A DNA stretch of 62,567 nt, filler included, from Aduncisulcus paluster (taxonomy: Eukaryota), in the NCBI GenBank assembly GCA_024181965.1. It is 14 parts of 14 records of this genome, joined end to end, with 100 filler letters (N's around TTAATTAATTAA, not from the genome) between each part and the next. Parts side by side here need not be neighbours in the genome. Positions count along the whole stretch, not along the records: positions 13,034 to 15,891 come from BQXS01011491.1; 13 more parts are not named here. One strand, given 5' to 3'. Shown here piece after piece: positions 1,955-56,702 of the stretch. Under the pieces are notes generated by a model. That model was not told the origin of the DNA. It saw only the letters and a program-made list of their open reading frames with translations, and ran no database searches. The translations under genes and the position numbers were made by a program. The first letter of the stretch is position 1, and every line of letters starts with the position of its first letter.

Positions 1955-3704
1955 ATGTTCCATTGCCATAAAATCATAATTTTTGAATTATTTTTACCTT
2001 ATTTTGAGTGGATTATAAGTATTTTTGATGCATTTCCTAAACCATCATTTGTTATTCTTCAAACTATTTTTCATGCCGATTTCATTGCTTCGATAACATT
2101 GGAACCCAAAAATAATATTTTATCTGTTTTATGTCCTCAACATTGTGTTATAGTTTATCAACTCACTTCAAATCCTCAACCTTTCCATCTTGTAAAACTT
2201 CATTCTTTTTGCCCATTATTCTTATCTGAACCATCACATCCGCTGTCTCAATCCTTTATCATTTTCGACGATCTCATATTTCTTGCCATTGGTCACCAGA
2301 AAGTCAACAGTATCTCAATCTTTCATGTTTTTTCCGGACTCTTAGTTTGTTCTTGGACAAATCGACAAAAAACAAAGGGTTCTGTCAAAGATATCCTTTN
2401 NNNNNNNNNNNNNNNNNNNGTTATAGTTTATCAACTCACTTCAAATCCTCAACCTTTCCATCTTGTAAAACTTCATTCTTTTTGCCCATTATTCTTATCT
2501 GAACCATCACATCCGCTGTCTCAATCCTTTATCATTTTCGACGATCTCATATTTCTTGCCATTGGTCACCAGAAAGTCAACAGTATCTCAATCTTTCATG
2601 TTTTTTCCGGACTCTTAGTTTGTTCTTGGACAAATCGACAAAAAACAAAGGGTTCTGTCAAAGATATCCTTTGGCTTGATGGATATCATGGATATCTAGC
2701 CATTTTAACTGGTGATTTTCTTCGAATCATTGATTTTCGCTCTGTTTTGAGCCAATATTGCCGTGAATACAAGAAAAATAGTCAATTTATGGTTGATTTG
2801 GAAGCTGATCTTGAAATGTCGAGACATTCTGCTACTTCACCTCTTTTAGTTGAATCAATACATTCCCCATATGATACTGATGATGATGAAATATCCAAAT
2901 ATAGCCACATTGAGAAAGAACAAGAAGAACAAGAAGAACAAGAAGGTTATGATGATTATATTCTCGATGGTGTTGTTCCACGATCCTTTATTTCCTCCAA
3001 AAAAGATATCTCATTCAAACACCGACCATTCCATTCATCATCATGTCATCATTCAACTTCTATCTTTCCCATAATACTATATAATCACATTTCTTGGTCT
3101 TTTCCTCTTGAAAATCCTTCTTTAAATCAGTTTTGTAGGATTTTTTCTGTTGTTAATAGTTCATATATTCTTCTCCAACGTTTTAATCCCTTGAATTATC
3201 ATCATAATCGGTGTCAGCATAATCGGTGTCAGCAACATTTAGAAGGGTGTCGAAAAGAACCATCTTCTCGACAAGAAAAAAAGGATAAAAATAGAATTTC
3301 AGTGTATCTGGCATTTAAATCATTTGATCCAAGTATTTTCTCCTCAAAATATCCAAGTTTAGAGATATTTCAACCAGAGTCAGAGACGAATCGAACAGAA
3401 TATCAATATATTCAAAAGAAAGAAGAAGAGAAAGAAGAAGAGAAAGAGAGAAAGGAGAAGAGGAAAAGGAAGAAATATTTGAGAAGAACAAAAGAAAAGA
3501 AATTTGGGGAAAGTAAGCTAAAAATAGATCAGAAACTAAAAATAGATCAGAAGGAGTCTTGTCAATATCATCATGTATCATACACTGATTCTAAAATTAG
3601 AGATGATTCTAAAATTAGAGATGATTCTAAAATTAGAGATGATGATATATTATTAGCTGGGAAAAGAAGATCTTCCAGCTCATATGTTCCCATTCCTCAC
3701 ACAG
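1955..3704 (+). CDS. Hypothetical protein, 3'-partial; contains an assembly duplication across the gap at 2400-2419
   Basis: Long ORF with a beta-rich N-terminus, acidic/basic tracts and an 18-bp DDSKIR repeat x3. No confident domain. Confidence 0.55.
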
Positions 3705-5896: not shown

Positions 5897-6112
5897 TGTT
5901 AGTATGATGGTATTACAATGTTGTTTATTTATTATTGACAGAAACTATTATTATTATTTATTATTTTGAAGTTATCATCTTATTATATTAAAGGATTAAG
6001 AATGTTTTATTTTTTGGTTCCGGTTTGGTTTCAAATCCAAAAACTGGGAATTTATATTTTATTTCAAAATAGTAAATTTGCTCCAAGCATAAATTCTGTA
6101 GAACAGCTAACA
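5897..6112 (+). mobile_element. Solo LTR (216 bp) with a 4-bp target-site duplication ACAA
   Basis: TGTTAG...CTAACA termini; matches 9259-9474 with no difference I could find; ACAA at 5893-5896 and 6113-6116. Confidence 0.9.
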
Positions 6113-9044: not shown

Positions 9045-9474
9045 GGTACAGACAAATGGGAACCATTACCAAAGGTTATTGGAACATTACCATTAGAGAA
9101 ATTTATTATCTCGCACCCGGAATTAATATATCGAATTGCTGAGCAAGGTTCGAAATATAAAATTAAAAGAAAACCTGGTAGGAAAAGGAAAGGATAGTCT
9201 GATTAATGGAAAAAAAACAATCATCATAATACGAGAATTATAAAAAGAAAGAAGGTAGTGTTAGTATGATGGTATTACAATGTTGTTTATTTATTATTGA
9301 CAGAAACTATTATTATTATTTATTATTTTGAAGTTATCATCTTATTATATTAAAGGATTAAGAATGTTTTATTTTTTGGTTCCGGTTTGGTTTCAAATCC
9401 AAAAACTGGGAATTTATATTTTATTTCAAAATAGTAAATTTGCTCCAAGCATAAATTCTGTAGAACAGCTAACA
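9045..9474 (+). mobile_element. 3' end of an LTR retrotransposon: integrase/chromodomain-like tail, polypurine tract (PPT) and 3' LTR
   Basis: 9045-9197 reads GTDKWEPLPKVIGTLPLEKFIISHPELIYRIAEQGSKYKIKRKPGRKRKG* (WEP motif). The PPT AAAAAGAAAGAAGGTAG directly precedes the LTR at 9259-9474, which matches the solo LTR at 5897. Confidence 0.8.
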
Positions 9475-10111: not shown

Positions 10112-12933
10112 TTAGTATACAGTTCCATTACATCTCACACATTTTCCCTTGTATTTCATGAACCCACAGTCAGAACACAGCCTTGCTAGAGTGAATTTTT
10201 CAAAACATGTCTTCCCACACTTGTTACACTGGTCAAATTTAGATCCAAAAGCGCACGATGAACACCGCTTGGCAGGCTCGGAAGAAGCACCACCAGCATA
10301 CTTTCCACACAAAATACACTTATCTCTTCCAGAAAATGCACAAGATTGGCAAAGAACAGCACGGGTCTCAGCTTGGCGGAGGATTTTCTTGTGTTCAGGA
10401 TCTTCACTTTTCTTGGCATCATCTTTCTTAGCACTGGAAGAACTAAACATGGCTCCAGAAGCACCCATGCAGGCGAGCTTATACATTTTGGTCTGGAAGG
10501 CCTGGTCTTCTTCCCATTCTTTCTTTGCGCTGAGGTAATGCCCGAAGATCTGATCGAAAAAGCTCAAGAAAAAGCCAAAATGCGGAGGAGTGTGTGTTTG
10601 AATTTGCTTAATAACCTCTTGGCAAGCAACAAATCCTTCTTTTGGATGCTCAAATTTCAAAGGAGAGGCTCCAAACCCAACCTCACATTCCACATGAGTA
10701 GGGTGGAATGAAATGAGAGGATAATTTACAAATGGCAACTTAGGTGAGAACATCATCTTTGTGCCATCGGTGCTCGGGGAAAGAATGAATGAAGGAAGTA
10801 CTTGAGGGGGAACAGCACGAATTAGAGCCTCTTCTTCGTCAATTTCTTCTTCAATACCTTCCCTCATCTTCTCCTCTTTCGCTCTGGTGGCTTCGAGCTC
10901 CTTTTGGGCCTTTTCTTCCTCACTAAGCATACCTGTACACCTAACAACACCAACAAGAACCTTTTCGCTGGCATCAGACTCTTTATCACCATCGTCAACC
11001 ATCTCTCTGGATTCAACTGACCATTCCCATGTCCTTCCGGCATTCTTGGATGAGAAAGTCTTTGGGAAGGCAGAGATATAAGTTGTTCGAAGAGTTTCCC
11101 GGGCAATCCTCTTTCGTTCTTCCTCTTCTTTCTTCTCTCTCCACTCACGCTCTCTCCGCTCTCTCTTTTCCCTCTTCTCTCGCTCGATTCTCTCAATCCT
11201 CTTCCTTTCGATCTCTTCTCTTCTTTTTCGCAAAACATCCTCACCAACAAGGGCGCAATCCATTAATTTCTGCTCAAATTCCATCAGTTGATGTNNNNNN
11301 NNNNNNNNNNNNNNGATGAGAAAGTCTTTGGGAAGGCAGAGATATAAGTTGTTCGAAGAGTTTCCCGGGCAATCCTCTTTCGTTCTTCCTCTTCTTTCTT
11401 CTCTCTCCACTCCCGCTCTCTCCGCTCTCTCTTTTCCCTCTTCTCTCGCTCGATTCTCTCAATCCTCTTCCTTTCGATCTCTTCTCTTCTTTTTCGCAAA
11501 ACATCCTCACCAACAAGGGCGCAATCCATTAATTTCTGCTCAAATTCCATCAGTTGATGTTCATCATACTCACGGAGTCTGAGAAGGAACATGGAAACCT
11601 CCGAGTCAGATCCACAAGAGGCATTTATAGATGAATAATACGTTGGAGAGAAAGGATCAAGATCGCCCAAGGAAACAACGTTGGATAGACATTTCCTCAC
11701 GAGTTCTGCCCAAACTTTGCCCCTTTGAACTCCCTTTTTAACCCATCTCAGAGCATAGTTATCAGCATCGGAGAGCATCTTTTCCCTCACACTCATTGAG
11801 ATGTCATAAGCAGGCGATAGTAAAGGATAAGAGAAGGTAAGAGCCTCTCTGAGAATGATTGGAAGTCTGTCAATGCCTATCCTTGAGGAAATACCATGTC
11901 GAACTCCAAGGACATGAGAATCGTGAGTGGCACAGTGGGATAGAATCTTGGAGCAGCATTCTATCGCATATATCCAGAGGTATTCCCCATCACAACGCTC
12001 GAATGTCGGTAATATGGAAGGGAATCCTCTGATATTAATCTCCAAGCGTTCAGGGGGAAAGTCTTCAGCCTGACTCTTGAACCACTCGTCAGTGCCTTTC
12101 TGTATATTGGATACGAGTGCAGGAAGCACGTCAAGAGCTGGACTGACTTTTTTCTCTTCCTCAAGAGCAGTACAGATACCAGGAACAACGGAACTAACAT
12201 CTGTCATCAAATTAATAGCTGCTGAACTTGCCAATGCTAGATGTTTGATAAGATACATTCCACACTCTTCTCCATGCTTCTCTAAGTTCTTACGGATACT
12301 GGCGGAGAACTTGCCAGCTGTTAATTCATTTGCATAGGGAGTGACATTCTTTGTGAAACTTTGGGCAGTACTGTTCTTCTTTGCGCATAAATCAGACAAT
12401 GCAACGAGAGACAAGGCATGTTTGATGGCAAAATTTGATGAGGAAGAGAGGAATGAACCCAAACCTGCAGGGGCTTCACGAGCGAGAGGAGGAGGAAGAG
12501 GGGTGATGGCGAAACATGAAGGAAGGGAGAGAGAAGGGAGATGGAAATTGTTTCCAACAGTAGACTGGTCCAAGGCAGTTTTTGACGAAGCTCTTTCAAA
12601 CAAGGCTCTGTCAACTCTCGATAAGACTGACAAAACGTCATTGCCTCTCCATAATCCACTCCTAAGATTAACACACTCTAGAGCAGCGGAATCAATGTCA
12701 CCTTTATCCAAATACTCTTGAACTAGCTTGAGAGAAGCAGCAGACTGTTGCTGGATGAAGGGGGAGACTGGGATGGGATACGGAGTGGACATGATTTCAG
12801 TGACAATTGGGGGGAAAGATTTCATCACAATGGAATATGGATACACAATACACATCATACAATCCAGTAGATGAGAGTGGATAATGGCAGAAATGAAAGA
12901 GTCTTCCTTGTTATCCTTTCTTCGCTCTGAATA
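10112..12933 (-). CDS. Large protein with a coiled coil, an SPRY-like domain and a C-terminal PHF5/Rds3-like zinc knot; 5'-partial; one gene across the duplicated gap at 11295-11314
   Basis: ORFs 11284-12858 and 10112-11410 join once the duplicate is collapsed. SPRY-like motifs WEWSVE, VLVGVV, YPLISF and EVGFGASPLKF; six CxxC pairs at the C-terminus. Confidence 0.75.
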
Positions 12934-13033: not shown

Positions 13034-13640
13034 TTGATTACAAAAAGCAAGAGCGGCATCTTTATCAGCAGATTTCAATTTCACAACATAAACACCGTTT
13101 GCTGGCTTCAAGTCATCAGATTTATCAATTACAGTAATAAATCTAACTTCTGGCATAGTAAAATCAGAGTGGCGTACTTGGCTTGTCAAGAAACTTGACT
13201 TCATTTCACTACGAACTTGAACTGGTGTTTTATCAGTAAAAACATGGCGTTCAGCATCACTCTTAGAAGAAATTATGGCCTTAGAATCATCTTTTTCCTT
13301 TGAAATTCCATCATCGGACAATAAATCAGACTTTTCCTTTTCATCAGATTCTTTGGCATTTTCACCATGACTGGCATCACTATCATGGCGTTCAGTTGGT
13401 AAATCACCAACAATTTCAAATTCTTCATCATTTTCACCTGTATTGGCGTTTTTCAATTGGCTTCTTGTTTGTACCATTTTAACAGAAAAAATTTGGCGTC
13501 AATTATACAATAAACTTTAGTTTGATAGGATTTTGATCAAAATGTGGCCAAACTATACGATAATGCGGTCCAATTTATTAATAAACAGATCTCGAGCGAA
13601 CCAATCTATTTTTAGAATGTCCCTGAGAATGGTCACCACA
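13034..13640 (-). mobile_element. LTR retrotransposon A, 5' end: 98-bp LTR (13543-13640), palindromic junction and gag start
   Basis: On the minus strand the LTR is TGTGGTGACC...GGCCACA and is near-identical to 46452-46548. The ORF MVQTRSQLKN... starts at 13477, 65 nt downstream of the LTR. Confidence 0.8.
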
Positions 13641-14272
13641 ACCCCACCTCAAAACTTTTTATAACACGATATTTCTAGAACAATATTCATTTTTATTATT
13701 ATTTATTCGAATTATGTTTATTTTATATATTTATTTTATATTCTCTGTCTCATAATTTGACATGTAATTGATTTCACAAGAATCAATCTGATCTCCCGCA
13801 AACCAATAAATTGTATCTAACGTTGACGAATCGTCTCCGTGTTATTCGCTTATTTAGTGACTAACACCACAATTTGATCAAATTTTAGAGAATTTTTTTA
13901 ATTACTGTTTAGTAATTCGGTGTTTCTTCTTTTTGCTCGGTGTGCAAATCTATTAGAAGATATTAGTGTTTTACAATGGGAAAAGGTTCCAAAGCAAAAA
14001 CAACGAAAGTTACGGACGTTTCTTCTGGAGAAACTACTAAGGGAAAATCAAAACTCGGAACAAAGAAATCTGGTGTAATTGCTGACGTTCCTAGTGATGA
14101 CTTGATGGTGGAACACGAACATAGCGAAACGAAAAGTCACGAATTGGGTAGTGAGGTGACGGGATCAACTTTTTCCGATGGTGTTCGCAACAACACGCTG
14201 AGCCGTGGTGATTTGGGCTCTACAGCACTTGTGAGGCGTTGGATAAGTATCTAGAAAGTAATAAGGCATTAA
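13641..14272 (+). mobile_element. LTR retrotransposon B, 5' end: 5'-truncated LTR of about 230 bp ending CACCACA at 13871, palindrome, disrupted gag-like ORF (13976-14254)
   Basis: AT-rich LTR-like segment with AATAAATTG, ending ACCACA like LTRs A and E. It is followed by AATTTGATCAAATT and the ORF MGKGSKAKTTKV..., and is cut off by element C. Confidence 0.6.
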
Positions 14273-15504
14273 TGTTATGGTACATCATCATTTAACTGTT
14301 TTATTCTCAGTTCTATTTTTAGACACTTTATTTCATTTGATTTATAATAAATTGCATTACGGTAACAGTATTAATACTCTTTCGATGCAAACAAACAAAG
14401 ATTCTATCACTATTTTGCAACCTCCCTATCTGCGGGAGTTTGATTCTAAGAAGTGGCTTCAGTTCCAACGTGACCTTAGGGTTTATGAGGCCAGAGGCGG
14501 AAGTGCCGAGTGGACAACTTTGGTAGAGCCAAGTTTATTGAAATCACTACGTCTGACTGCTCAAATTGCTGAGGAGGCAACGGGAACTGACCTGCAAGAA
14601 GCGTTAACGAAAAAGTTTGCGGCGACGACGACCCAAGCGTATTACGACCAGCTAAAGGCCTTAAGACTTGATATACTTTCGGCCACAGCATTGGTGAAAT
14701 TTACAGCGGATTTTCAGGAAATTGTGGACCGGCATCCTGATTTTGGCGATGATGAACACGTCACCGGAATGTACCTAAGAGGTCTAAAGATACCCAGACT
14801 ATCAGAAAGGACACGCTCAGAAATCGATACGGCTGGGAAGAAAGATGACCTTACATTCGCGATGAGACAAGCTTTCACAGAATTAGAGGAGATGGTGGCG
14901 ATAAAGGATGAAGTGTTGAAACATGCAACTTCTTTTGGACTCAGCGTACGTACATGCCGTTCATTGGAGACAGGGGGTAAGCGAAGGACCCATACACCCA
15001 TGGGTGGTATACCTGTCAGAAAACCAATAAGGTGCCACAAAGTGGCAAGCTGGGCCATAAGGCTTTTGAATGCCGTACGAGCAGCCCCGGAGTTAGGCCA
15101 GGGCAACAGCAGGGAAAACCAATTACTTACGCTGCGAAAGCCAATGCGAGTAAAGGTTTTGCTGTTTATCTGGAAGTTTTTAAAAGTCAGCTCGCACTGA
15201 GCGGTGTTAAATTCATGGGTTTAATTGATTCGGGAGCTGAACTAAATTTTATAAGCGAATCTGAGTATGAGAAGCTCGACCCGAATCACGAAGCAATATC
15301 TGAAGGAATAGCACTGACTATTGAGTTAACAGATGGTTCCAGGCGAAAGGTATCTACAAGAGTCAGCCTTTTCGTTAATGGTCAGGGCCATGGATAAATC
15401 TCTTGAGTTTTGGATGGATTTCATTTTGTTAGAGATGGAAAGAAACGTCAGACATAAACTGATCATTGGAAGTCAGTCAGCTTTGGACATTGGACTTTTG
15501 GATA
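14273..15504 (+). mobile_element. LTR retrotransposon C: 95-bp 5' LTR (14273-14367), gag, zinc knuckle and protease; decayed
   Basis: TGTTA...TAACA termini; ATG at 14385 (MQTNKDSITILQPPYLREFDSKKWLQF...). The knuckle CHK(C)GKLGHKAFEC is broken by a frameshift near 15040. Aspartic protease motif LIDSGAELNFIS, then a stop at 15397. Confidence 0.88.
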
Positions 15505-15891
15505 TGTAATAATCATGATCTAATTATAGATCTGCTTCTCAATGATCTAATTATAGATCTTTACTTTAATAAATTTGCTCACTATAAAAGTCAACAAGAC
15601 ATTACAATATTAATATTGATTGTGTTATGACTACTCCACAACCTACCAAAGAAAAAGCAACGATTCTCACAGCCGAACGAGGTCCGGACAGCCCCTACTT
15701 GGAAGTGCTCACGACTGCTACCTGGGCGAAGTTTATTCGGGAATATCGACATTACCGAAGCTTAGGCGGTAAGAAACTCTGGCCGGAATGTGTTACTGTG
15801 ACAATACTGGGTGTGGTGAAGGATCTAACAGGCGTCCCCGTTCTCACTTCAAAAGAGAACAGAAAAAAGGCCCTCGAGGCCATGGAAAAGG
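15505..15891 (+). mobile_element. LTR retrotransposon D, 5' end: 102-bp LTR (15505-15606) and gag start
   Basis: TGTAAT...ATTACA termini; ATG at 15627. SPYLEVLTTATWAKFIREYRHYRSLGG aligns with element C gag PPYLREFDSKKWLQFQRDLRVYEARGG. Confidence 0.82.
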
Positions 15892-17507: not shown

Positions 17508-18371
17508 TGATCAGAACTTTTTATTCTTATCCTATACAATTTACTAATATTAAAAACATCTTCAAAATAGAATTTCATTATATACATAATAATTAACAAA
17601 TTACCAATTGCAAATTTCAATGTTCTAAATCGGCTGAGAATTTTACTCATCACTGATCTCTTTTCATCCATTGGGCATCGATAAAACAAACAAACCACAC
17701 CGCAACGTAGTCACGATTGGCTTTCTAATGAAGCAAAATATACAAGGTATCAATATGGTTGGGAGAGATCAATGATATTATTAGTATTCAAAATGATGAA
17801 GTATAGTAGGTTTTGTGAAATCAAGGGGCGAAAGATGAGAGGAAGAAAATAGGTGTTCATGAACTTCATGTTCAAAAATAAAACAAATAAAACAAAAAAC
17901 AAACGATTTTCCATTTCCATAAATCTTGCGAGTGGGAAGAATTTGAGAATGTGGAAATGTCTATTTGTAAGCGAATATCAATATACAAAAAGAATGTGGA
18001 TATNNNNNNNNNNNNNNNNNNNNGATTGGCTTTCTAATGAAGCAAAATATACAAGGTATCAATATGGTTGGGAGAGATCAATGATATTATTAGTATTCAA
18101 AATGATGAAGTATAGTAGGTTTTGTGAAATCAAGGGGCGAAAGATGAGAGGAAGAAAATAGGTGTTCATGAACTTCATGTTCAAAAATAAAACAAATAAA
18201 ACAAAAAACAAACGATTTTCCATTTCCATAAATCTTGCGAGTGGGAAGAATTTGAGAATGTGGAAATGTCTATTTGTAAGCGAATATCAATATACAAAAA
18301 GAATGTGGATATATATTGCGTGTAGAAATAACATAATATATGTAACAAACTATGATTCATCTTAGTAAGTA

Positions 18372-46451: not shown

Positions 46452-47039
46452 TGTGGCCAAACTAACTATAATGCGGTCCAATTTATTAATAAACAGATCT
46501 CGAGCGAACCAATCTATTTTTAGAATGTCCCTGAGAATGGTCACCACATCCTCCTCTCACTTGAAGAGGGCATCTCATGGCCGAAACCCTGTTCTCCTCT
46601 TCGTGATCATTCTCTTGGCGTAACAAACAACTATTATTTAAGCAAACAACACTCTTTGACCCGTTTATAGTAGCATATACCGGCTACAGACGGTATTCTG
46701 ATCAAAATGGGCGCATGACGCATACAGCATCAATGCAAACATGAACACACATACAATCACAATCAAATGGCGTACACATACAACACATAACACGACATAT
46801 GGCGTACACACAACAACAACAACACAACAACAACAACACAACAACAACACAACAACACAACAACAACACAACAACAACACAACAAATGGCTTCGACACAA
46901 CAGAATCCAACACAACAACAACATATCCAGGGACACGACAAACAACAACAACAACAAACTTGCAGCTATCATATGGCATTGGCTTTTATGGAATCTTCGG
47001 ATGCACCGACCCGTGGCTTACAGTGCTGTCCGTGGCATT
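46452..47039 (-). mobile_element. Family-A element 3' end: GT-rich 3' region, PPT and 97-bp 3' LTR (46452-46548), inserted into the gag of element F
   Basis: The LTR is near-identical to 13543-13640. The minus-strand PPT GAGAGGAGGA directly precedes TGTGGTG. A (GTT)n-like tract lies at about 46810-46960. Confidence 0.85.
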
Positions 47040-48655: not shown

Positions 48656-51070
48656 ATGGAAGATATTCAAGCCAAAATCAAAAAATTTCAAAAGAAATCG
48701 TCAATCAGCCAACAAAGATTCGATATTAAAGAACTATCCATAAAAACCTTGGCACATCTTAAATCCAGGTATTCAAAGATAGAATCTGATCTTACCTCTC
48801 TGTATAAATCAATTTCTAAATATGATTCTTCAATATCTAACCCCATTCATATGATTGCTGATCTTGGGGGGAAACATGTTGAAGTTCAAAATAAGATCAT
48901 AAAATACAGAAATTTATCATCAAAGTTAGATATAAAACAATGTTTGTTACTTTGTAATGAAAAAGAAACTCAAATTCAAACTGCATATGATAAGTTGGTG
49001 TTGACAAACAGTTCTTGGATTGAATCTAGTTCTAACACATTTTATTGGTTGTTTGAATCCATTTCAGCAAGTATTTATGACATTTTTGCGTCTTCAACAT
49101 ATTCCAGTGTCTTGAAGGAATCTACACACTCTGATTTTTCTCCGCCATGTTCATCAAATTCTGATATTATTATGAGTCCAATAGAAAATCCAATATCTTT
49201 TGTTTCTCAAGAATCATTTCCCCATGTATCTGCATGTATTGAGTCAATTATTGCTGATGCAGAGGTATTCGATAAAAATGTGCATGATATTCTATCATCT
49301 TCTCCACGATATTCACTCCCTCCTTCATTTTCAAGTATGTGGATATGTGGAAGTCCATTATTGTCTCTTTGTCCGATTCACAACTTTCAGATATCGGATG
49401 AACCCTCTTCCAGAGTTTTTGTTACCGAGTTTGAAACAGGTTCTGCATCCCTTCCTTTTGAATTGCAACATCAATCCATTCATGGACTTAAGAATTGTCC
49501 TTGTGGATGTCTTGGCTTCGATTTTGAGTGTATTGGTCCTGAAATGGATAGTCTCATAACTTCTCATCTCCGGTCACCTCCCTTATTTTTTTTGCCCAAT
49601 TGTTCCAAAGAAATTCAAATAGGATTAACTTTTTTCCCAATTCTTATGAAGCTTCGAAGGCCTGGAATTACTCCTTCCCGTCGATTGGATGAAATTGTAC
49701 ACCATATTACCAAAAGTTGGAATCATATTGAGTCTAANNNNNNNNNNNNNNNNNNNNTTCCTTTTGAATTGCAACATCAATCCATTCATGGACTTAAGAA
49801 TTGTCCTTGTGGATGTCTTGGCTTCGATTTTGAGTGTATTGGTCCTGAAATGGATAGTCTCATAACTTCTCATCTCCGGTCACCTCCCTTATTTTTTTTG
49901 CCCAATTGTTCCAAAGAAATTCAAATAGGATTAACTTTTTTCCCAATTCTTATGAAGCTTCGAAGGCCTGGAATTACTCCTTCCCGTCGATTGGATGAAA
50001 TTGTACACCATATTACCAAAAGTTGGAATCATATTGAGTCTAAATCGATGTCAATTCATCCAAAATCTAAATCAAAGAGTGTTTCGTTGTTTGATTATAT
50101 TCGTTCGTTATTTCAGACTCGCCAATTTCTTTGTTCGACACTCGAGAAGAGAGAACAGCGAATCAAAGACCTCAGTTCACGGTGTAGAACATTACTTTTT
50201 GAAGCTTTTCAACTTGATATCTTGTACTTTTCAAAGAAATCGGAACAAAAACAACTTCTACGACGAAGGCAAGATCTCATTCATCAAATCTCTCAAATGC
50301 GGGAGGAGAATGATATTCTTGAGGCATATTTTAAGAAAAAGGCTCAAGAGGAATTGGATTTAAAACGTGAAGAACAGATAAAGCGTGAGAAAAAAGAAAA
50401 GACTCGGCAAGCACAGCAGAGATTGGCTGTAGAATCATATAAAATTCAGAAATCGCAGAAAATATCCCGTCAAAATGCCTTGGACACCAAACGACTGTTG
50501 CTGGCAAGCCAACAAAGGAAACGGAACATTCTAGCATCTGCCAAAAAAGTGTCAGAAAGACAAATTGAAGCAGAAAAAACGACAATTCAACGTACTGCTC
50601 ATCCACGAATTGTTGCTGAATCTGCAAAACAACGAAAAGAATATTTACGTAAAGTTGCTGCAAAATATGCTCCTGACATGTCGGAATATTCCAAGGATCA
50701 TATCCATTCTTTGACTGGGTGTTTTGATAGGTATGTGAAGTTAAGTGAGGAGGAGAGAAGGGCTGCAATGGACGAGGAAATATCCCTTGCTGATGCAGAT
50801 GGAATTGTGAGAAAGAGTGTTAGAAAGGCAGGAAAGGGTCTTTGGGGGGGAGGATTTGCTGTAGAAACAGGGTTTTCGGATTCCACAGTAACTTCTGATC
50901 CTCGCTACAAATTGGCACTTAGACTCTATGAACAAGGAATTGCTGGAAACAAATATGCCTCACATATGATGAAAAACTATTTTGTGTACAAACCAGATCG
51001 GATTGGAGAAGGAAGGAGAATTCAATTCCAACAAATGAAGCATCAGATTCATAAATTTGATGGAATCTGA
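48656..51070 (+). CDS. CCDC148-like coiled-coil protein; assembly duplication at gap 49738-49757
   Basis: The C-terminal GFSDSTVTSDPRYKLALRLYEQGI...YA resembles the CCDC148 tail; long coiled coil. Confidence 0.6.
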   Translation: MEDIQAKIKKFQKKSSISQQRFDIKELSIKTLAHLKSRYSKIESDLTSLYKSISKYDSSISNPIHMIADLGGKHVEVQNKIIKYRNLSSKLDIKQCLLLCNEKETQIQTAYDKLVLTNSSWIESSSNTFYWLFESISASIYDIFASSTYSSVLKESTHSDFSPPCSSNSDIIMSPIENPISFVSQESFPHVSACIESIIADAEVFDKNVHDILSSSPRYSLPPSFSSMWICGSPLLSLCPIHNFQISDEPSSRVFVTEFETGSASLPFELQHQSIHGLKNCPCGCLGFDFECIGPEMDSLITSHLRSPPLFFLPNCSKEIQIGLTFFPILMKLRRPGITPSRRLDEIVHHITKSWNHIESXXXXXXXXPFELQHQSIHGLKNCPCGCLGFDFECIGPEMDSLITSHLRSPPLFFLPNCSKEIQIGLTFFPILMKLRRPGITPSRRLDEIVHHITKSWNHIESKSMSIHPKSKSKSVSLFDYIRSLFQTRQFLCSTLEKREQRIKDLSSRCRTLLFEAFQLDILYFSKKSEQKQLLRRRQDLIHQISQMREENDILEAYFKKKAQEELDLKREEQIKREKKEKTRQAQQRLAVESYKIQKSQKISRQNALDTKRLLLASQQRKRNILASAKKVSERQIEAEKTTIQRTAHPRIVAESAKQRKEYLRKVAAKYAPDMSEYSKDHIHSLTGCFDRYVKLSEEERRAAMDEEISLADADGIVRKSVRKAGKGLWGGGFAVETGFSDSTVTSDPRYKLALRLYEQGIAGNKYASHMMKNYFVYKPDRIGEGRRIQFQQMKHQIHKFDGI

Positions 51071-56462: not shown

Positions 56463-56702
56463 ACCATCAAAGAGTTCTCTAACAAGAGGGTTCTTCTCAT
56501 AAATATGAACAAGGACTTTTAAAGCAACATCCTTGGTCGGAATATTGTAGTTAATATCTCCAACTTGGAACTTCCTTTGGGAACCAAGAGAAACCAAGAT
56601 CCCAAGATCAGTTAGGAGGTTGGGGATATTGCTAGCAGAAAGTGACTCAAAAAGGCGACTAATTTCGCCCGTTTCAATGGAGCTCTGCGCTTCCTCAGTC
56701 AT
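56463..56702 (-). CDS. Hypothetical protein N-terminus; paralogous segment of 23737-24390
   Basis: MTEEAQSSIETGEISRLF followed by the shared 62-aa block. Confidence 0.6.

What the first reader, a model, noticed from the sequence alone, without database searches (positions are those of the whole stretch)
13530..15618. Four different LTR retrotransposons have a perfect palindrome where the tRNA primer-binding site should be
Seen: every 5'LTR-to-gag junction lacks the canonical TGG primer-binding site (PBS) and carries a perfect palindrome starting on the LTR's terminal A or CA. A: ATTTTGATCAAAAT (13530-13543, minus-strand element). B: AATTTGATCAAATT (13871-13884). C: AGTATTAATACT (14367-14378). 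D: CAATATTAATATTG (15605-15618). The four sequences differ, but symmetry, length (12-14) and position are kept, which implies compensatory change. Established: Ty3/gypsy elements normally prime from a tRNA 3'-CCA. The Tf1/sushi group self-primes from the transcript 5' end, but I found no complement of these palindromes inside their own LTRs. Inference: a self-complementary PBS would let two genomic RNAs (or a 3' copy) anneal, and cleavage after the palindrome would leave a 3'-OH at the U5 boundary. This would be tRNA-independent, dimer-coupled priming. I do not know of this being described.
Basis: partly seen in the sequence, partly recalled or inferred. Interest (0 to 1): 0.92.

Follow-up and report, generated by a model that had tools for sequence, protein, structure and literature searches.

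The report
Palindrome replaces primer site in retrotransposons
Four nested jumping genes of a little-studied flagellate carry a short perfect palindrome exactly where such elements normally bind a tRNA to start copying themselves, a rare feature seen once before in fungal elements and still without a known mechanism.

Summary
Contig 13034-15891 contains the 5' ends of four nested LTR retrotransposons. Each 5' LTR runs directly into a perfect 12-14 nt palindrome that starts on the LTR's last A or CA. None has a TGG primer-binding site.

- LTR A is delimited by a second copy. Neither of the two 3' LTRs in the window is followed by a palindrome.
- The symmetry is kept through changes on both sides: 27 of 28 central pairs are Watson-Crick.
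- There is no Tf1-type complement in the elements' own LTRs, while a control element shows one.
- C and D belong to a Ty3/gypsy, chromodomain-bearing lineage. Its nearest named proteins are from Aduncisulcus paluster.
- Two families carry a conserved near-copy of the palindrome 136-146 nt upstream of the 3' LTR. It departs from symmetry only by G·U pairs on the sense strand.

The feature is not undescribed. Fungal GalEa copia elements have a palindrome that includes the LTR's final A in place of the primer site (PMC5445492), and its mechanism is also unknown.

Best reading: an RNA-level, tRNA-independent site primed by the element's own RNA. This is inferred, not shown.

The parts
13034..13477 (-). 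Element A: N-terminal 148 codons of its gag-like ORF, running to the contig end
   Evidence: ORF. It is 96% identical to the first half of the 296-aa protein P0121. The rest of P0121 carries a gag-type FIRGLRP..F motif and matches a gag-like stretch of P0001 (E 5e-8).
13530..13543 (-). Palindrome A, ATTTTGATCAAAAT. Its first base on the element strand is the LTR's terminal A.
   Evidence: 7 of 7 pairs Watson-Crick. It sits inside a longer imperfect inverted repeat, TAGTTTG..CAAACTA (I6, 61).
13543..13640 (-). Element A 5' LTR, 98 bp, TGTGGTGACC...GGCCACA
   Evidence: 98% identical to 46452-46548, with both ends of the match at TGTGG/CCACA. Very high summed depth in run X1.
13641..13871 (+). 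Element B 5' LTR, lacking its first 7 nt where A's LTR abuts it
   Evidence: The loose end GTGTGGTG before 13641 in another contig of run X1 gives the native start TGTGGTG+ACCCC. The end ...ACACCACA is shared with A and F. Depth is 5-10 times that of B's interior.
13871..13884 (+). Palindrome B, AATTTGATCAAATT
   Evidence: It differs from A at the paired positions 2 and 13, a change on both sides.
13976..14254 (+). Element B: first ORF (92 aa)
   Evidence: No Pfam match. C's LTR starts 18 nt after its stop. Whether the stop is original is unknown.
14273..14367 (+). Element C 5' LTR (95 bp, TGTTA...TAACA). The limits are inferred.
   Evidence: Terminal inverted repeat read. Depth is 6.7k in bin 14282-14377 against 1.2k from 14378 on.
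14367..14378 (+). Palindrome C, AGTATTAATACT
   Evidence: 6 of 7 central pairs. The gag ATG follows 6 nt later.
14385..15504 (+). Element C gag, degenerate zinc knuckle and aspartic protease (LIDSGAE), with two frame shifts, cut off by D's LTR
   Evidence: The gag is homologous to the gag of Ty3/gypsy-order polyproteins. There is a weak RVP_2 hit.
15505..15606 (+). Element D 5' LTR (102 bp, TGTAAT...ATTACA)
   Evidence: Joint to 15505 and loose end at 15504 in run X1. Terminal inverted repeat. Internal 19-nt direct repeat (D6).
15605..15618 (+). Palindrome D, CAATATTAATATTG, starting on the LTR's CA
   Evidence: 7 of 7. A-T where C has G-C, a change on both sides.
15627..15891 (+). Element D gag N-terminus, running to the contig end
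   Evidence: 32% identical to C's gag N-terminus and matches the gag N-terminus of P0001 (E 2e-5).
46452..46548 (-). Second copy of LTR A, read as a 3' LTR. It is followed by GAAGATT..., not by a palindrome.
   Evidence: The purine tract GAGAGGAGGA (46549-46558) lies directly upstream on the element strand. Downstream lies the 5'-truncated gag of another element.
46695..46708 (-). Near-copy of palindrome A (ATTTTGATCAGAAT on the element strand), 146 nt upstream of A's 3' LTR
   Evidence: 1 mismatch; conserved island; 6 Watson-Crick pairs plus 1 G·U.
44108..44121 (+). Near-copy (ATTTTGATCAGGAT), 136 nt upstream of the 3' LTR of a further family, F
   Evidence: 2 mismatches; 19 of 20 nt, CCCATTTTGATCAGRATAC, shared with A's 3' region while the flanks do not align; 5 Watson-Crick pairs plus 2 G·U.
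44258..44485 (+). LTR of family F (228 bp, TGTGGTGACC...ACCACA), read as a 3' LTR. It is followed by CCTGGACC..., not by a palindrome.
   Evidence: A purine-rich tract at 44241-44257 lies directly upstream. The LTR interrupts the reverse transcriptase of element E.
44455..46449 (-). Element E: 5'-truncated gag with zinc knuckle, protease and reverse transcriptase. It was used to place the lineage.
   Evidence: Pfam RVT_1 and aspartic protease. 54% identical to the 1679-aa polyprotein P0001.

Best explanation
The contig is a nest of four LTR retrotransposons. A and B lie head to head, C is inserted in B, and D is inserted in C. The host is a fornicate flagellate. In each element the tRNA primer-binding site is replaced by a 12-14 nt perfect palindrome that overlaps the last one or two bases of the 5' LTR.

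I read the palindrome as the RNA-level start site of minus-strand DNA synthesis, primed by the element's own RNA rather than by a host tRNA. A palindromic site can only be matched by an RNA carrying the same sequence. Each family has its own palindrome, so the simplest donor is the element's transcript.

The most coherent geometry works in trans:
1. The palindromes of two co-packaged genomic RNAs pair.
2. An RNase H-type cut is made in one RNA, as many bases before the palindrome's end as the LTR reaches into its start.
3. That cut leaves a 3'-OH opposite the first base after U5 of the other RNA.
4. This 3'-OH is extended through U5-R.

The conserved near-copy upstream of the 3' LTR would let the two ends of the RNA pair as well, which would help the first strand transfer.

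Shown: the anatomy, the conservation of symmetry, and the absence of a TGG site or a Tf1-type site. Inferred: the priming role, the trans geometry, the nuclease and the role of the 3' copy.
For: - Position: 4 of 4 5' LTR ends run into a perfect palindrome, against 0 of 2 3' LTR flanks.
- Conservation of form: the central seven pairs are 7/7, 7/7, 6/7 and 7/7 Watson-Crick, while six of the seven pair positions differ among the families. There are changes on both sides between A and B, between C and D, and between the two groups.
- RNA level: the two 3' near-copies depart from symmetry only by G·U on the sense strand, 3 of 3 changes. They lie in a 19-of-20-nt conserved island within regions that otherwise do not align.
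- No alternative primer site: there is no TGG. The best duplex of the site with its own LTR is no better than with shuffled LTRs (fraction of shuffles at least as good 0.33-0.66), and the longest exact complement is 0-7 nt. The same test finds an 11-nt Tf1-type complement in the metagenome relative L004 (-13.6 against -7.8 +/- 1.8, about 1 of 300 shuffles). Relative L003 shows the canonical TGGTATCAGAGC.
- The site is compatible with amplification. Family A has summed depth 300k-585k against 1.2k for the apparently single-copy interior of C (the tool warns this is not a copy number). No variant of 5% or more is listed at any palindrome position (8 rows were hidden).
- Precedent: fungal GalEa elements have a palindrome that includes the LTR's final A at the PBS position, and their authors propose that it plays the PBS role (PMC5445492, sections 10-11).
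- Predicted homodimers through the palindrome are 11-13 kcal/mol more stable than two monomers. This is expected for any palindrome and so is weak evidence.
Against: - Nothing shows priming. No RNA ends, no strong-stop DNA and no transcripts were available.
- Only four junctions from one 2.9-kb contig were seen. They form two related pairs, so there are at most two to four independent cases.
- The LTR ends of B, C and D are inferred, not delimited by second copies.
- Host tRNAs and small RNAs could not be searched. Only one tRNA lies in the window, and it has no complement.
- The palindromes are A+T-rich, so the duplexes are weak.
- A 3' near-copy is not needed for a pure primer site. It fits a dimerisation, cyclisation or packaging signal equally well.
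- The cut in an RNA-RNA duplex is assumed by analogy with Tf1 (recalled).
- 3' ends of B, C and D were not available, so the 3' copy is known only for A and F.
Confidence: 0.42

Rival explanations
1. The palindrome is a dimerisation, cyclisation or packaging signal of the genomic RNA, like a retroviral dimer initiation site or the Ty1 and Ty3 5'-3' interactions. Minus-strand priming would then use something else that is still unseen.
For: Palindromes are the classical dimer initiation motif. A conserved near-copy lies near the 3' end of two families and G·U pairs are tolerated. That fits 5'-3' or RNA-RNA pairing without any priming role. Ty3 uses a 5'-3' bipartite site and a 12-nt palindrome for dimerisation (PMC5371799, passages read).
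Against: The site abuts and overlaps the LTR end exactly, in 4 of 4 families, which is the place fixed by the start of minus-strand DNA. No other candidate primer site was found between LTR and gag, and only 6-8 nt remain before the ATG in C and D. Known dimer sites occur in addition to a PBS and sit in hairpin loops (PMC5445492, section 11).
Confidence: 0.2
2. The site works in cis as a hairpin, like the Conserved Hairpin Site proposed for fungal GalEa elements. The hairpin would recruit reverse transcriptase or snap back to prime.
For: A, and after bulges C and D, can form 38-42 nt imperfect hairpins centred on the palindrome (I6, 46, 61). GalEa elements are described with a larger hairpin that has an internal loop at the LTR junction (PMC5445492, section 10).
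Against: No second copy of the core with 2 or fewer mismatches lies within 110 nt downstream in any of the four elements, so the CHSeq1/CHSeq2 design is absent. Only A has a clear outer stem in register. As a hairpin the palindrome leaves a 5-bp A-U stem. A cis cut after the palindrome would also separate the PBS from the rest of the template (my reasoning).
Confidence: 0.12
3. A host RNA, such as an internal tRNA fragment as in copia or Ty5, or another small RNA, primes at these sites.
For: Half-tRNA primers are known (PMC5371799, introduction passage). tRNA arms can be palindromic: the T arm of the window's own tRNA-Ser reads GGGTTCGAACCC. The host tRNA set was not available.
Against: Four families have four different palindromes, with changes on both sides. 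That would need a different, equally symmetric host RNA for each. The cores TTTGATCAAA and TATTAATA do not resemble conserved tRNA loops (recalled). The one tRNA in the window has no complement of 5 nt or more.
Confidence: 0.1
4. The palindrome acts as double-stranded DNA, as a binding site for a dimeric protein. That protein could be a transcription factor just downstream of the LTR promoter, or a factor acting on LTR ends.
For: Perfect palindromes are typical sites for dimeric DNA-binding proteins. The LTRs also hold other palindromic hexamers such as CTCGAG, AGATCT and TTTATTAATAAA.
Against: The sequence differs between families while the symmetry is kept, which fits pairing better than a common protein. 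The 3' near-copies are symmetric only if G·U is allowed, which has meaning only in RNA of the sense strand.
Confidence: 0.06
5. Chance in A+T-rich DNA, or an assembly artefact.
For: The window as a whole has no excess of palindromes. The contig is short and made of repeats.
Against: A palindrome at the LTR end in 4 of 4 cases has a chance of about 1e-6 or less (observation check). The palindromes are shorter than an assembly word and lie inside contigs. Contigs of run X1 cover the region and bridge the B/C and C/D junctions (record 7), although that run may be the source data.
Confidence: 0.01

Closest known systems
Conserved Hairpin Site of fungal GalEa (Ty1/copia) retrotransposons (Donnart et al. 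2017, PMC5445492; sections 10 and 11 read)
   Same: No tRNA PBS. A conserved palindrome lies directly after the 5' LTR and is palindromic only when the LTR's final A is included. The cores are related ((A)CTGATCAGT and (A)CTAATTAGT there; TTTGATCAAA and TATTAATA here). The LTRs are short and end TGT..CA. No Tf1-type complement was found. The mechanism is unknown.
   Different: Here the lineage has Ty3/gypsy domain order with a chromodomain, in a metamonad rather than a fungus. The palindromes are 12-14 nt instead of 10. There is no downstream inverse-complementary CHSeq2. A near-copy lies near the 3' LTR. Additional files of that paper could not be seen, so the range of its variants is not known to me.
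Tf1/sushi-type self-priming chromoviruses (Tf1 of S. pombe; mechanism recalled, cited in passages of PMC5445492, PMC5006619 and PMC6934838)
   Same: Ty3/gypsy elements with a chromodomain and no TGG site. The primer would come from the element's own RNA after an RNase H-type cut.
   Different: Tf1 pairs its PBS with the first 11 nt of its own transcript, inside the LTR. That complement is absent here but present in the control element L004. The Tf1 PBS is not palindromic (PMC5445492, section 11).
Skipper elements of dictyostelids (Spaller et al. 2016, PMC5006619; passages read)
   Same: [quoted passage not shown]
   Different: Skipper has a polypyrimidine tract after the LTR, not a palindrome.
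Ty3 bipartite 5'-3' primer-binding site and palindrome-mediated dimer (PMC5371799; passages read)
   Same: Related sequence elements near both ends of the RNA. A 12-nt palindrome links two initiation complexes.
   Different: In Ty3 the palindrome is in the tRNA primer and the sites bind tRNAiMet. Here no tRNA site exists and the palindrome is in the element.
Retroviral dimer initiation sites (as summarised in PMC5445492, section 11)
   Same: A short palindrome in the 5' leader that can pair two genomic RNAs.
   Different: Those sites lie in a hairpin loop downstream of, and in addition to, a tRNA PBS. Here the palindrome occupies the PBS position itself.

Membership tests
LTR retrotransposon (general) | Direct long terminal repeats ending TG..CA | tested here: met
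   LTR A has two copies, 98% identical, TGTGG..CCACA. B, C, D and F show TG..CA ends with short terminal inverted repeats. Both LTRs of one and the same element were never seen.
LTR retrotransposon (general) | Polypurine tract directly upstream of the 3' LTR | tested here: met
   GAGAGGAGGA lies before the copy of A at 46548. AGAAAGTAAGGGGTGAG lies before F at 44258.
LTR retrotransposon (general) | tRNA primer-binding site (TGG...) within a few bases of the 5' LTR | tested here: not met
   No TGG follows any of the four LTR ends. Control relative L003 shows TGGTATCAGAGC.
Ty3/gypsy (Metaviridae), chromovirus branch | Domain order gag-PR-RT-RNase H-IN, with a C-terminal chromodomain | tested here: inconclusive
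   The copies in the window stop at PR (C) or within gag (A, B, D). Full-length proteins sharing C's gag type (P0141, P0142, P0148) have RT, then RNase H, then IN, and 2 of the 3 have a chromodomain. D's gag matches P0001. The pol of A is unknown (one search found nothing) and B was not searched.
Tf1/sushi self-priming group | PBS complementary to about 11 nt at the 5' end of the transcript, inside the 5' LTR | tested here: not met
   Longest exact complements are 0, 7, 5 and 6 nt. Duplex energies lie within the shuffled range. The positive control L004 has 11 nt.
GalEa-type Conserved Hairpin Site | Palindrome directly after the 5' LTR that includes the LTR's final A | tested here: met
   Here the palindromes are 12-14 nt and D's includes CA.
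GalEa-type Conserved Hairpin Site | Second 9-nt sequence 12-41 nt downstream, inverse-complementary with one fixed A/A mismatch | tested here: not met
   No copy of the 10-nt core with 2 or fewer mismatches lies within 110 nt downstream in A-D.
GalEa clade (Ty1/copia) | Copia domain order (PR-IN-RT) and GalEa motifs | tested here: not met
   Relatives of C and D have RT before IN. This was not testable for A and B.
Retroviral dimer initiation site | Palindrome exposed in a hairpin loop, present in addition to a PBS | tested here: not met
   No PBS is present. In predicted folds the palindrome forms the stem rather than a loop. This is prediction only.

The most novel reading that the evidence does not exclude
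These elements start reverse transcription by a mechanism not yet demonstrated for any retroelement. The palindromes of the two packaged genomic RNAs pair. One RNA is cut within the duplex and sacrificed as the primer for the other. A G·U-tolerant copy near the 3' end brings the acceptor for the first strand transfer alongside. The same principle would explain the unexplained palindrome of fungal GalEa elements. It would then be a third general way to prime LTR retroelements, after tRNA priming and Tf1-type cis self-priming, and one that arose in both the copia and gypsy superfamilies.
Probability: 0.28. Interest if true: 0.85.

Novelty: new variant of a known kind. Interest (0 to 1): 0.62.

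Why it matters
How minus-strand synthesis starts is one of the few steps of LTR retroelement replication with known alternatives: the tRNA 3' end, a half-tRNA, and Tf1 self-priming. A palindrome at the primer site was reported once, in fungal copia elements, and left unexplained.

Finding the same design in gypsy-type elements of a distant protist points to a real and recurrent strategy rather than a fungal oddity. The symmetry here is maintained by compensatory change, and a conserved second copy lies near the 3' LTR. The sense-strand G·U pattern indicates that the site acts as RNA.

The model is directly testable with half-site mutants that can only pair as heterodimers. Independence from tRNA would also free such elements from host defences that target tRNA-primed elements through tRNA fragments (abstract of PMC7472051, seen in the search listing).

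Tried and rejected
- Further copies in the window: tblastn of seven retro-ORFs found only themselves. A self-BLAST found only the second copy of LTR A.
- Related DNA elsewhere. A viral-contig scan with E's pol found none. A metagenome scan with A's ORF found none. A metagenome scan with P0148 returned 7 distant loci (27-33% identity) and not P0148's own contig. These loci served only as controls.
- Pol of family A: a search for longer proteins with P0121 residues 150-296 found nothing.
- Pfam on the A, B, C and D ORFs gave nothing above threshold.
- Rfam and ARAGORN on the window found only tRNA-Ser.
- One DNA run holds the contig. It may be the source data, so it is not independent. Parts without listed variants prove nothing.
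- Reading 13530-13884 as one unit with 16-nt terminal inverted repeats (I7) was rejected. The 98-bp LTR A recurs alone with its own ends, and depth differs about tenfold between the two halves.
- An LTR-LTR circle junction as the source of the palindrome was rejected. Such a junction would read CCACA|TGTGG, which is not what is seen.
- A MAFFT alignment of the six sites put C and D out of register, so pairs were counted by script from each centre instead.
- Earlier findings of the scan: none for this genome. One unrelated Ty1 note turned up.
- Literature: searches found no paper on retrotransposons of Aduncisulcus. They found no other report of a palindromic PBS substitute beyond PMC5445492 and its citation in PMC6934838. 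Subscription journals are not covered.
Full report
**What the window is.** The 62.6-kb window is a chain of small contigs joined by N44-TTAATTAATTAA-N44 linkers. Its genes are long, uninterrupted reading frames of a eukaryote with about 38% G+C. They include leucine-rich-repeat proteins, glucose-6-phosphate dehydrogenase, a Dzip1-like ciliary protein and a kinase. The nearest named proteins of its retroelement genes come from NCBI records of Aduncisulcus paluster, a fornicate metamonad, at 54-96% identity. No whole genome is held. The finding lies in one contig, 13034-15891.

**The observation.** All four perfect palindromes are present at the stated coordinates.

The contig reads as a nest:
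- **Element A**, on the minus strand, has a gag-like ORF (13477 down to the contig end), a 52-nt leader, the palindrome, and a 98-bp LTR (13543-13640).
- **Element B**, head to head with A, has an LTR (13641-13871), the palindrome and a 92-codon ORF.
- **Element C** is inserted after B's ORF. It has a 95-bp LTR, the palindrome, then gag, a degenerate zinc knuckle and a protease with two frame shifts.
- **Element D** is inserted in C. It has a 102-bp LTR, the palindrome and the start of gag.

The evidence for the LTR limits varies in strength:
- LTR A is firmly delimited. A second copy at 46452-46548 is 98% identical over 98 nt, and the match begins and ends at TGTGG and CCACA.
- On the element strand that second copy is preceded by GAGAGGAGGA, a polypurine tract. 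It is followed by the truncated gag of another element (E), not by a palindrome. It is therefore a 3' LTR, which fixes the orientation of A.
- A further LTR, of family F (44258-44485, plus strand), is also preceded by a purine tract and followed by unrelated sequence.
- Contigs of the one public run that holds the region give B's native start: a loose end GTGTGGTG before 13641. They also give D's start, from a joint and a loose end at 15504/15505.
- C's limits rest on its TGTTA..TAACA ends and on a drop in depth.

All four LTRs carry AATAAATT(T)G.

**More than chance.** The window as a whole has no excess of palindromes. It holds 24 non-linker palindromes of 12 nt or more against 18.7 expected, and 5 of 14 nt or more against 5.0 expected. 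A palindrome starting within three positions of a given LTR end has a chance of about 1e-3. Four of four 5' junctions have one, and neither of the two 3' LTR flanks does.

Counted outwards from each centre, the seven central pairs are Watson-Crick in 7/7, 7/7, 6/7 and 7/7 cases, yet six of the seven pair positions differ among the families:
- A and B differ at one pair on both sides.
- C and D differ at one pair on both sides (G-C against A-T).
- The two groups differ on both sides at the three innermost pairs.

At protein level C and D are only 32% identical at the gag N-terminus, and A and B are not detectably similar. These are diverged families that kept a symmetry, not a sequence.

**What the elements are.**
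- E has a zinc knuckle, a protease and RVT_1 in that order.
- C's gag is homologous to the gag of P0001 (E 1e-8 and 2e-4, colinear). D's gag N-terminus is too (E 2e-5).
- A full HMMER search with C's gag found 32 proteins.
- The three long ones examined (P0141, P0142, P0148) have RT, then RNase H, then integrase. Two of them end in a chromodomain.

C and D therefore belong to a Ty3/gypsy, chromovirus-like lineage, not to copia. The gag of A can be extended by P0121 and carries a gag-type motif. Its pol was not found, and B remains unclassified. A, B and F share LTR ends (TGTGGTGACC...CCACA).

**Tests of known priming modes.**
- No TGG follows any of the four LTR ends.
- For Tf1-type self-priming I looked for a complement of the 14 nt after each LTR within its own LTR. 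The longest exact complements are 0, 7, 5 and 6 nt, and the best duplex energies lie in the middle of the shuffled distributions.
- The test works. L004, a distant relative fetched from a metagenome, has an 11-nt complement 69 nt before its LTR end, at -13.6 kcal/mol against -7.8 +/- 1.8.
- Another relative, L003, has the canonical TGGTATCAGAGC.
- The only tRNA in the window (Ser-TGA) has no complement. The host's tRNA set could not be examined.

**A second copy near the 3' end.** A search for A's palindrome with up to two mismatches found six sites against 1.8 expected. Two of them lie in the internal regions just upstream of the two 3' LTRs:
- ATTTTGATCAGAAT, 146 nt before A's 3' LTR.
- ATTTTGATCAGGAT, 136 nt before F's 3' LTR.

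The two regions do not align otherwise, but they share a 20-nt island, CCCATTTTGATCAGRATAC, with 19 of 20 positions identical. All three departures from perfect symmetry are A-to-G changes that give G·U pairs on the sense strand. On the other strand they would be C·A mismatches. This points to pairing of sense-strand RNA and to some interplay of the 5' and 3' ends. The 3' ends of B, C and D are not in the window.

**What is known.** Donnart et al. 2017 (PMC5445492, sections 10 and 11 read) report that fungal GalEa copia elements lack a PBS. These elements carry a conserved 9-bp sequence directly after the 5' LTR that is palindromic when the LTR's final A is included: (A)CTGATCAGT or (A)CTAATTAGT in 85% of families. 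It is followed 12-41 bp later by an inverse-complementary sequence with a fixed A/A mismatch, and together they form the 'Conserved Hairpin Site'. The authors found no Tf1-type complement and state that no described model fits. A paper on bivalve TRIMs cites this (PMC6934838, passages).

The present case differs from it in five ways:
- the superfamily, which has gypsy domain order with a chromodomain;
- the host, a metamonad;
- the length of the palindrome, 12-14 nt;
- the absence of a downstream partner;
- the near-copy close to the 3' LTR.

[quoted passage not shown] Ty3 offers a precedent for a 5'-3' bipartite site and for a palindrome-linked dimer, but through its tRNA (PMC5371799, passages). 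Five literature searches found no other report and nothing on retrotransposons of this host. Subscription journals and supplements were not covered.

**Most likely mechanism (inferred).** A palindromic primer site can only be matched by an RNA that carries the same sequence. Since each family has its own palindrome, the element's own RNA is the simplest donor.

If the palindromes of two genomic RNAs pair, the base opposite the first nucleotide after the LTR lies as many bases before the palindrome's end as the LTR reaches into its start. A cut there leaves a 3'-OH that can be extended through U5-R of the partner RNA. This geometry explains why the palindrome must begin on the LTR's last base or bases, as it also does in GalEa.

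A cut in cis would separate the primer site from the rest of the template, so I favour the trans version. The 3' near-copy could hold the acceptor end close for the first strand transfer.

Predicted homodimers are 11-13 kcal/mol more stable than two monomers, but that is true of any palindrome. Family A's very high summed depth in run X1 suggests the design supports amplification: 300k-585k against 1.2k for C's interior, although the tool warns this is not a copy number.

None of this shows priming. The rivals remain open: a pure dimerisation or cyclisation signal, a cis hairpin, a host RNA primer, or a DNA-level protein site.

**Verdict.** The feature is a new variant of a rare, known but mechanistically unexplained kind. 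Interest is 0.62. It remains substantial because the feature recurs in a second superfamily and a distant host, with RNA-level covariation and a 3' copy, which makes a new priming mode directly testable.

Noticed in passing
window 2400-2419, 11295-11314, 18004-18023, 29179-29198, 36677-36696, 49738-49757: Each of the six 20-N gaps is flanked by a direct duplication, 99.6-100% identical, of 246-305 bp (for example 2147-2399 = 2420-2672). The two sides of each gap overlap and were not merged, which looks like a scaffolding artefact. Reading frames that cross these gaps are therefore artificially duplicated.
   Followed up: partly
window 13574-13585 and 46482-46493; 44316-44323: LTR A itself holds a 12-nt palindrome, TTTATTAATAAA, overlapping its AATAAA. 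The octamer TATTAATA, the core of the palindromes of C and D, occurs 9 times in the window against 1.3 expected, and 5 of the 9 lie in LTR elements.
   Followed up: partly
window 26070-26140: An intergenic stretch starts TGTGGG, contains AATAAATTTAATG and ends TTTACA directly before TATTAATA. It resembles a very short LTR end with a palindrome core, but may be chance.
   Followed up: no
window 13641 (junction of A and B): B's LTR lacks its first 7 nt (TGTGGTG) exactly where A's LTR, in the opposite orientation, ends with the reverse complement CACCACA. A seems to have inserted 7 nt into B's LTR, or the two recombined at their shared ends.
   Followed up: partly
L004 309-487 and 6211-6389: A metagenome Ty3/gypsy element has 179-bp LTRs and no TGG. 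An 11-nt complement of the sequence after its 5' LTR lies 69 nt before the LTR end, so it is a Tf1-type self-priming candidate.
   Followed up: partly
P0001 residues 1391-1677: After its integrase, the 1679-aa polyprotein model from the nearest named organism carries a second gag-like stretch of A's type, a zinc knuckle and an integrase zinc domain. It is probably a gene model run across nested elements.
   Followed up: no
window 46760-46960 (minus strand): The internal region upstream of A's 3' LTR is a long (TGTTG)n-like low-complexity tract without an obvious reading frame. Family A, the most abundant one, may be non-autonomous.
   Followed up: no
window 9259-9474 = 5897-6112; 56463-56650 ~ 23864-24051: Two further repeats are shared between different contigs of the window. 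One is 216 bp at 100% identity and the other 188 bp at 98% in inverted orientation. Their nature is unknown.
   Followed up: no
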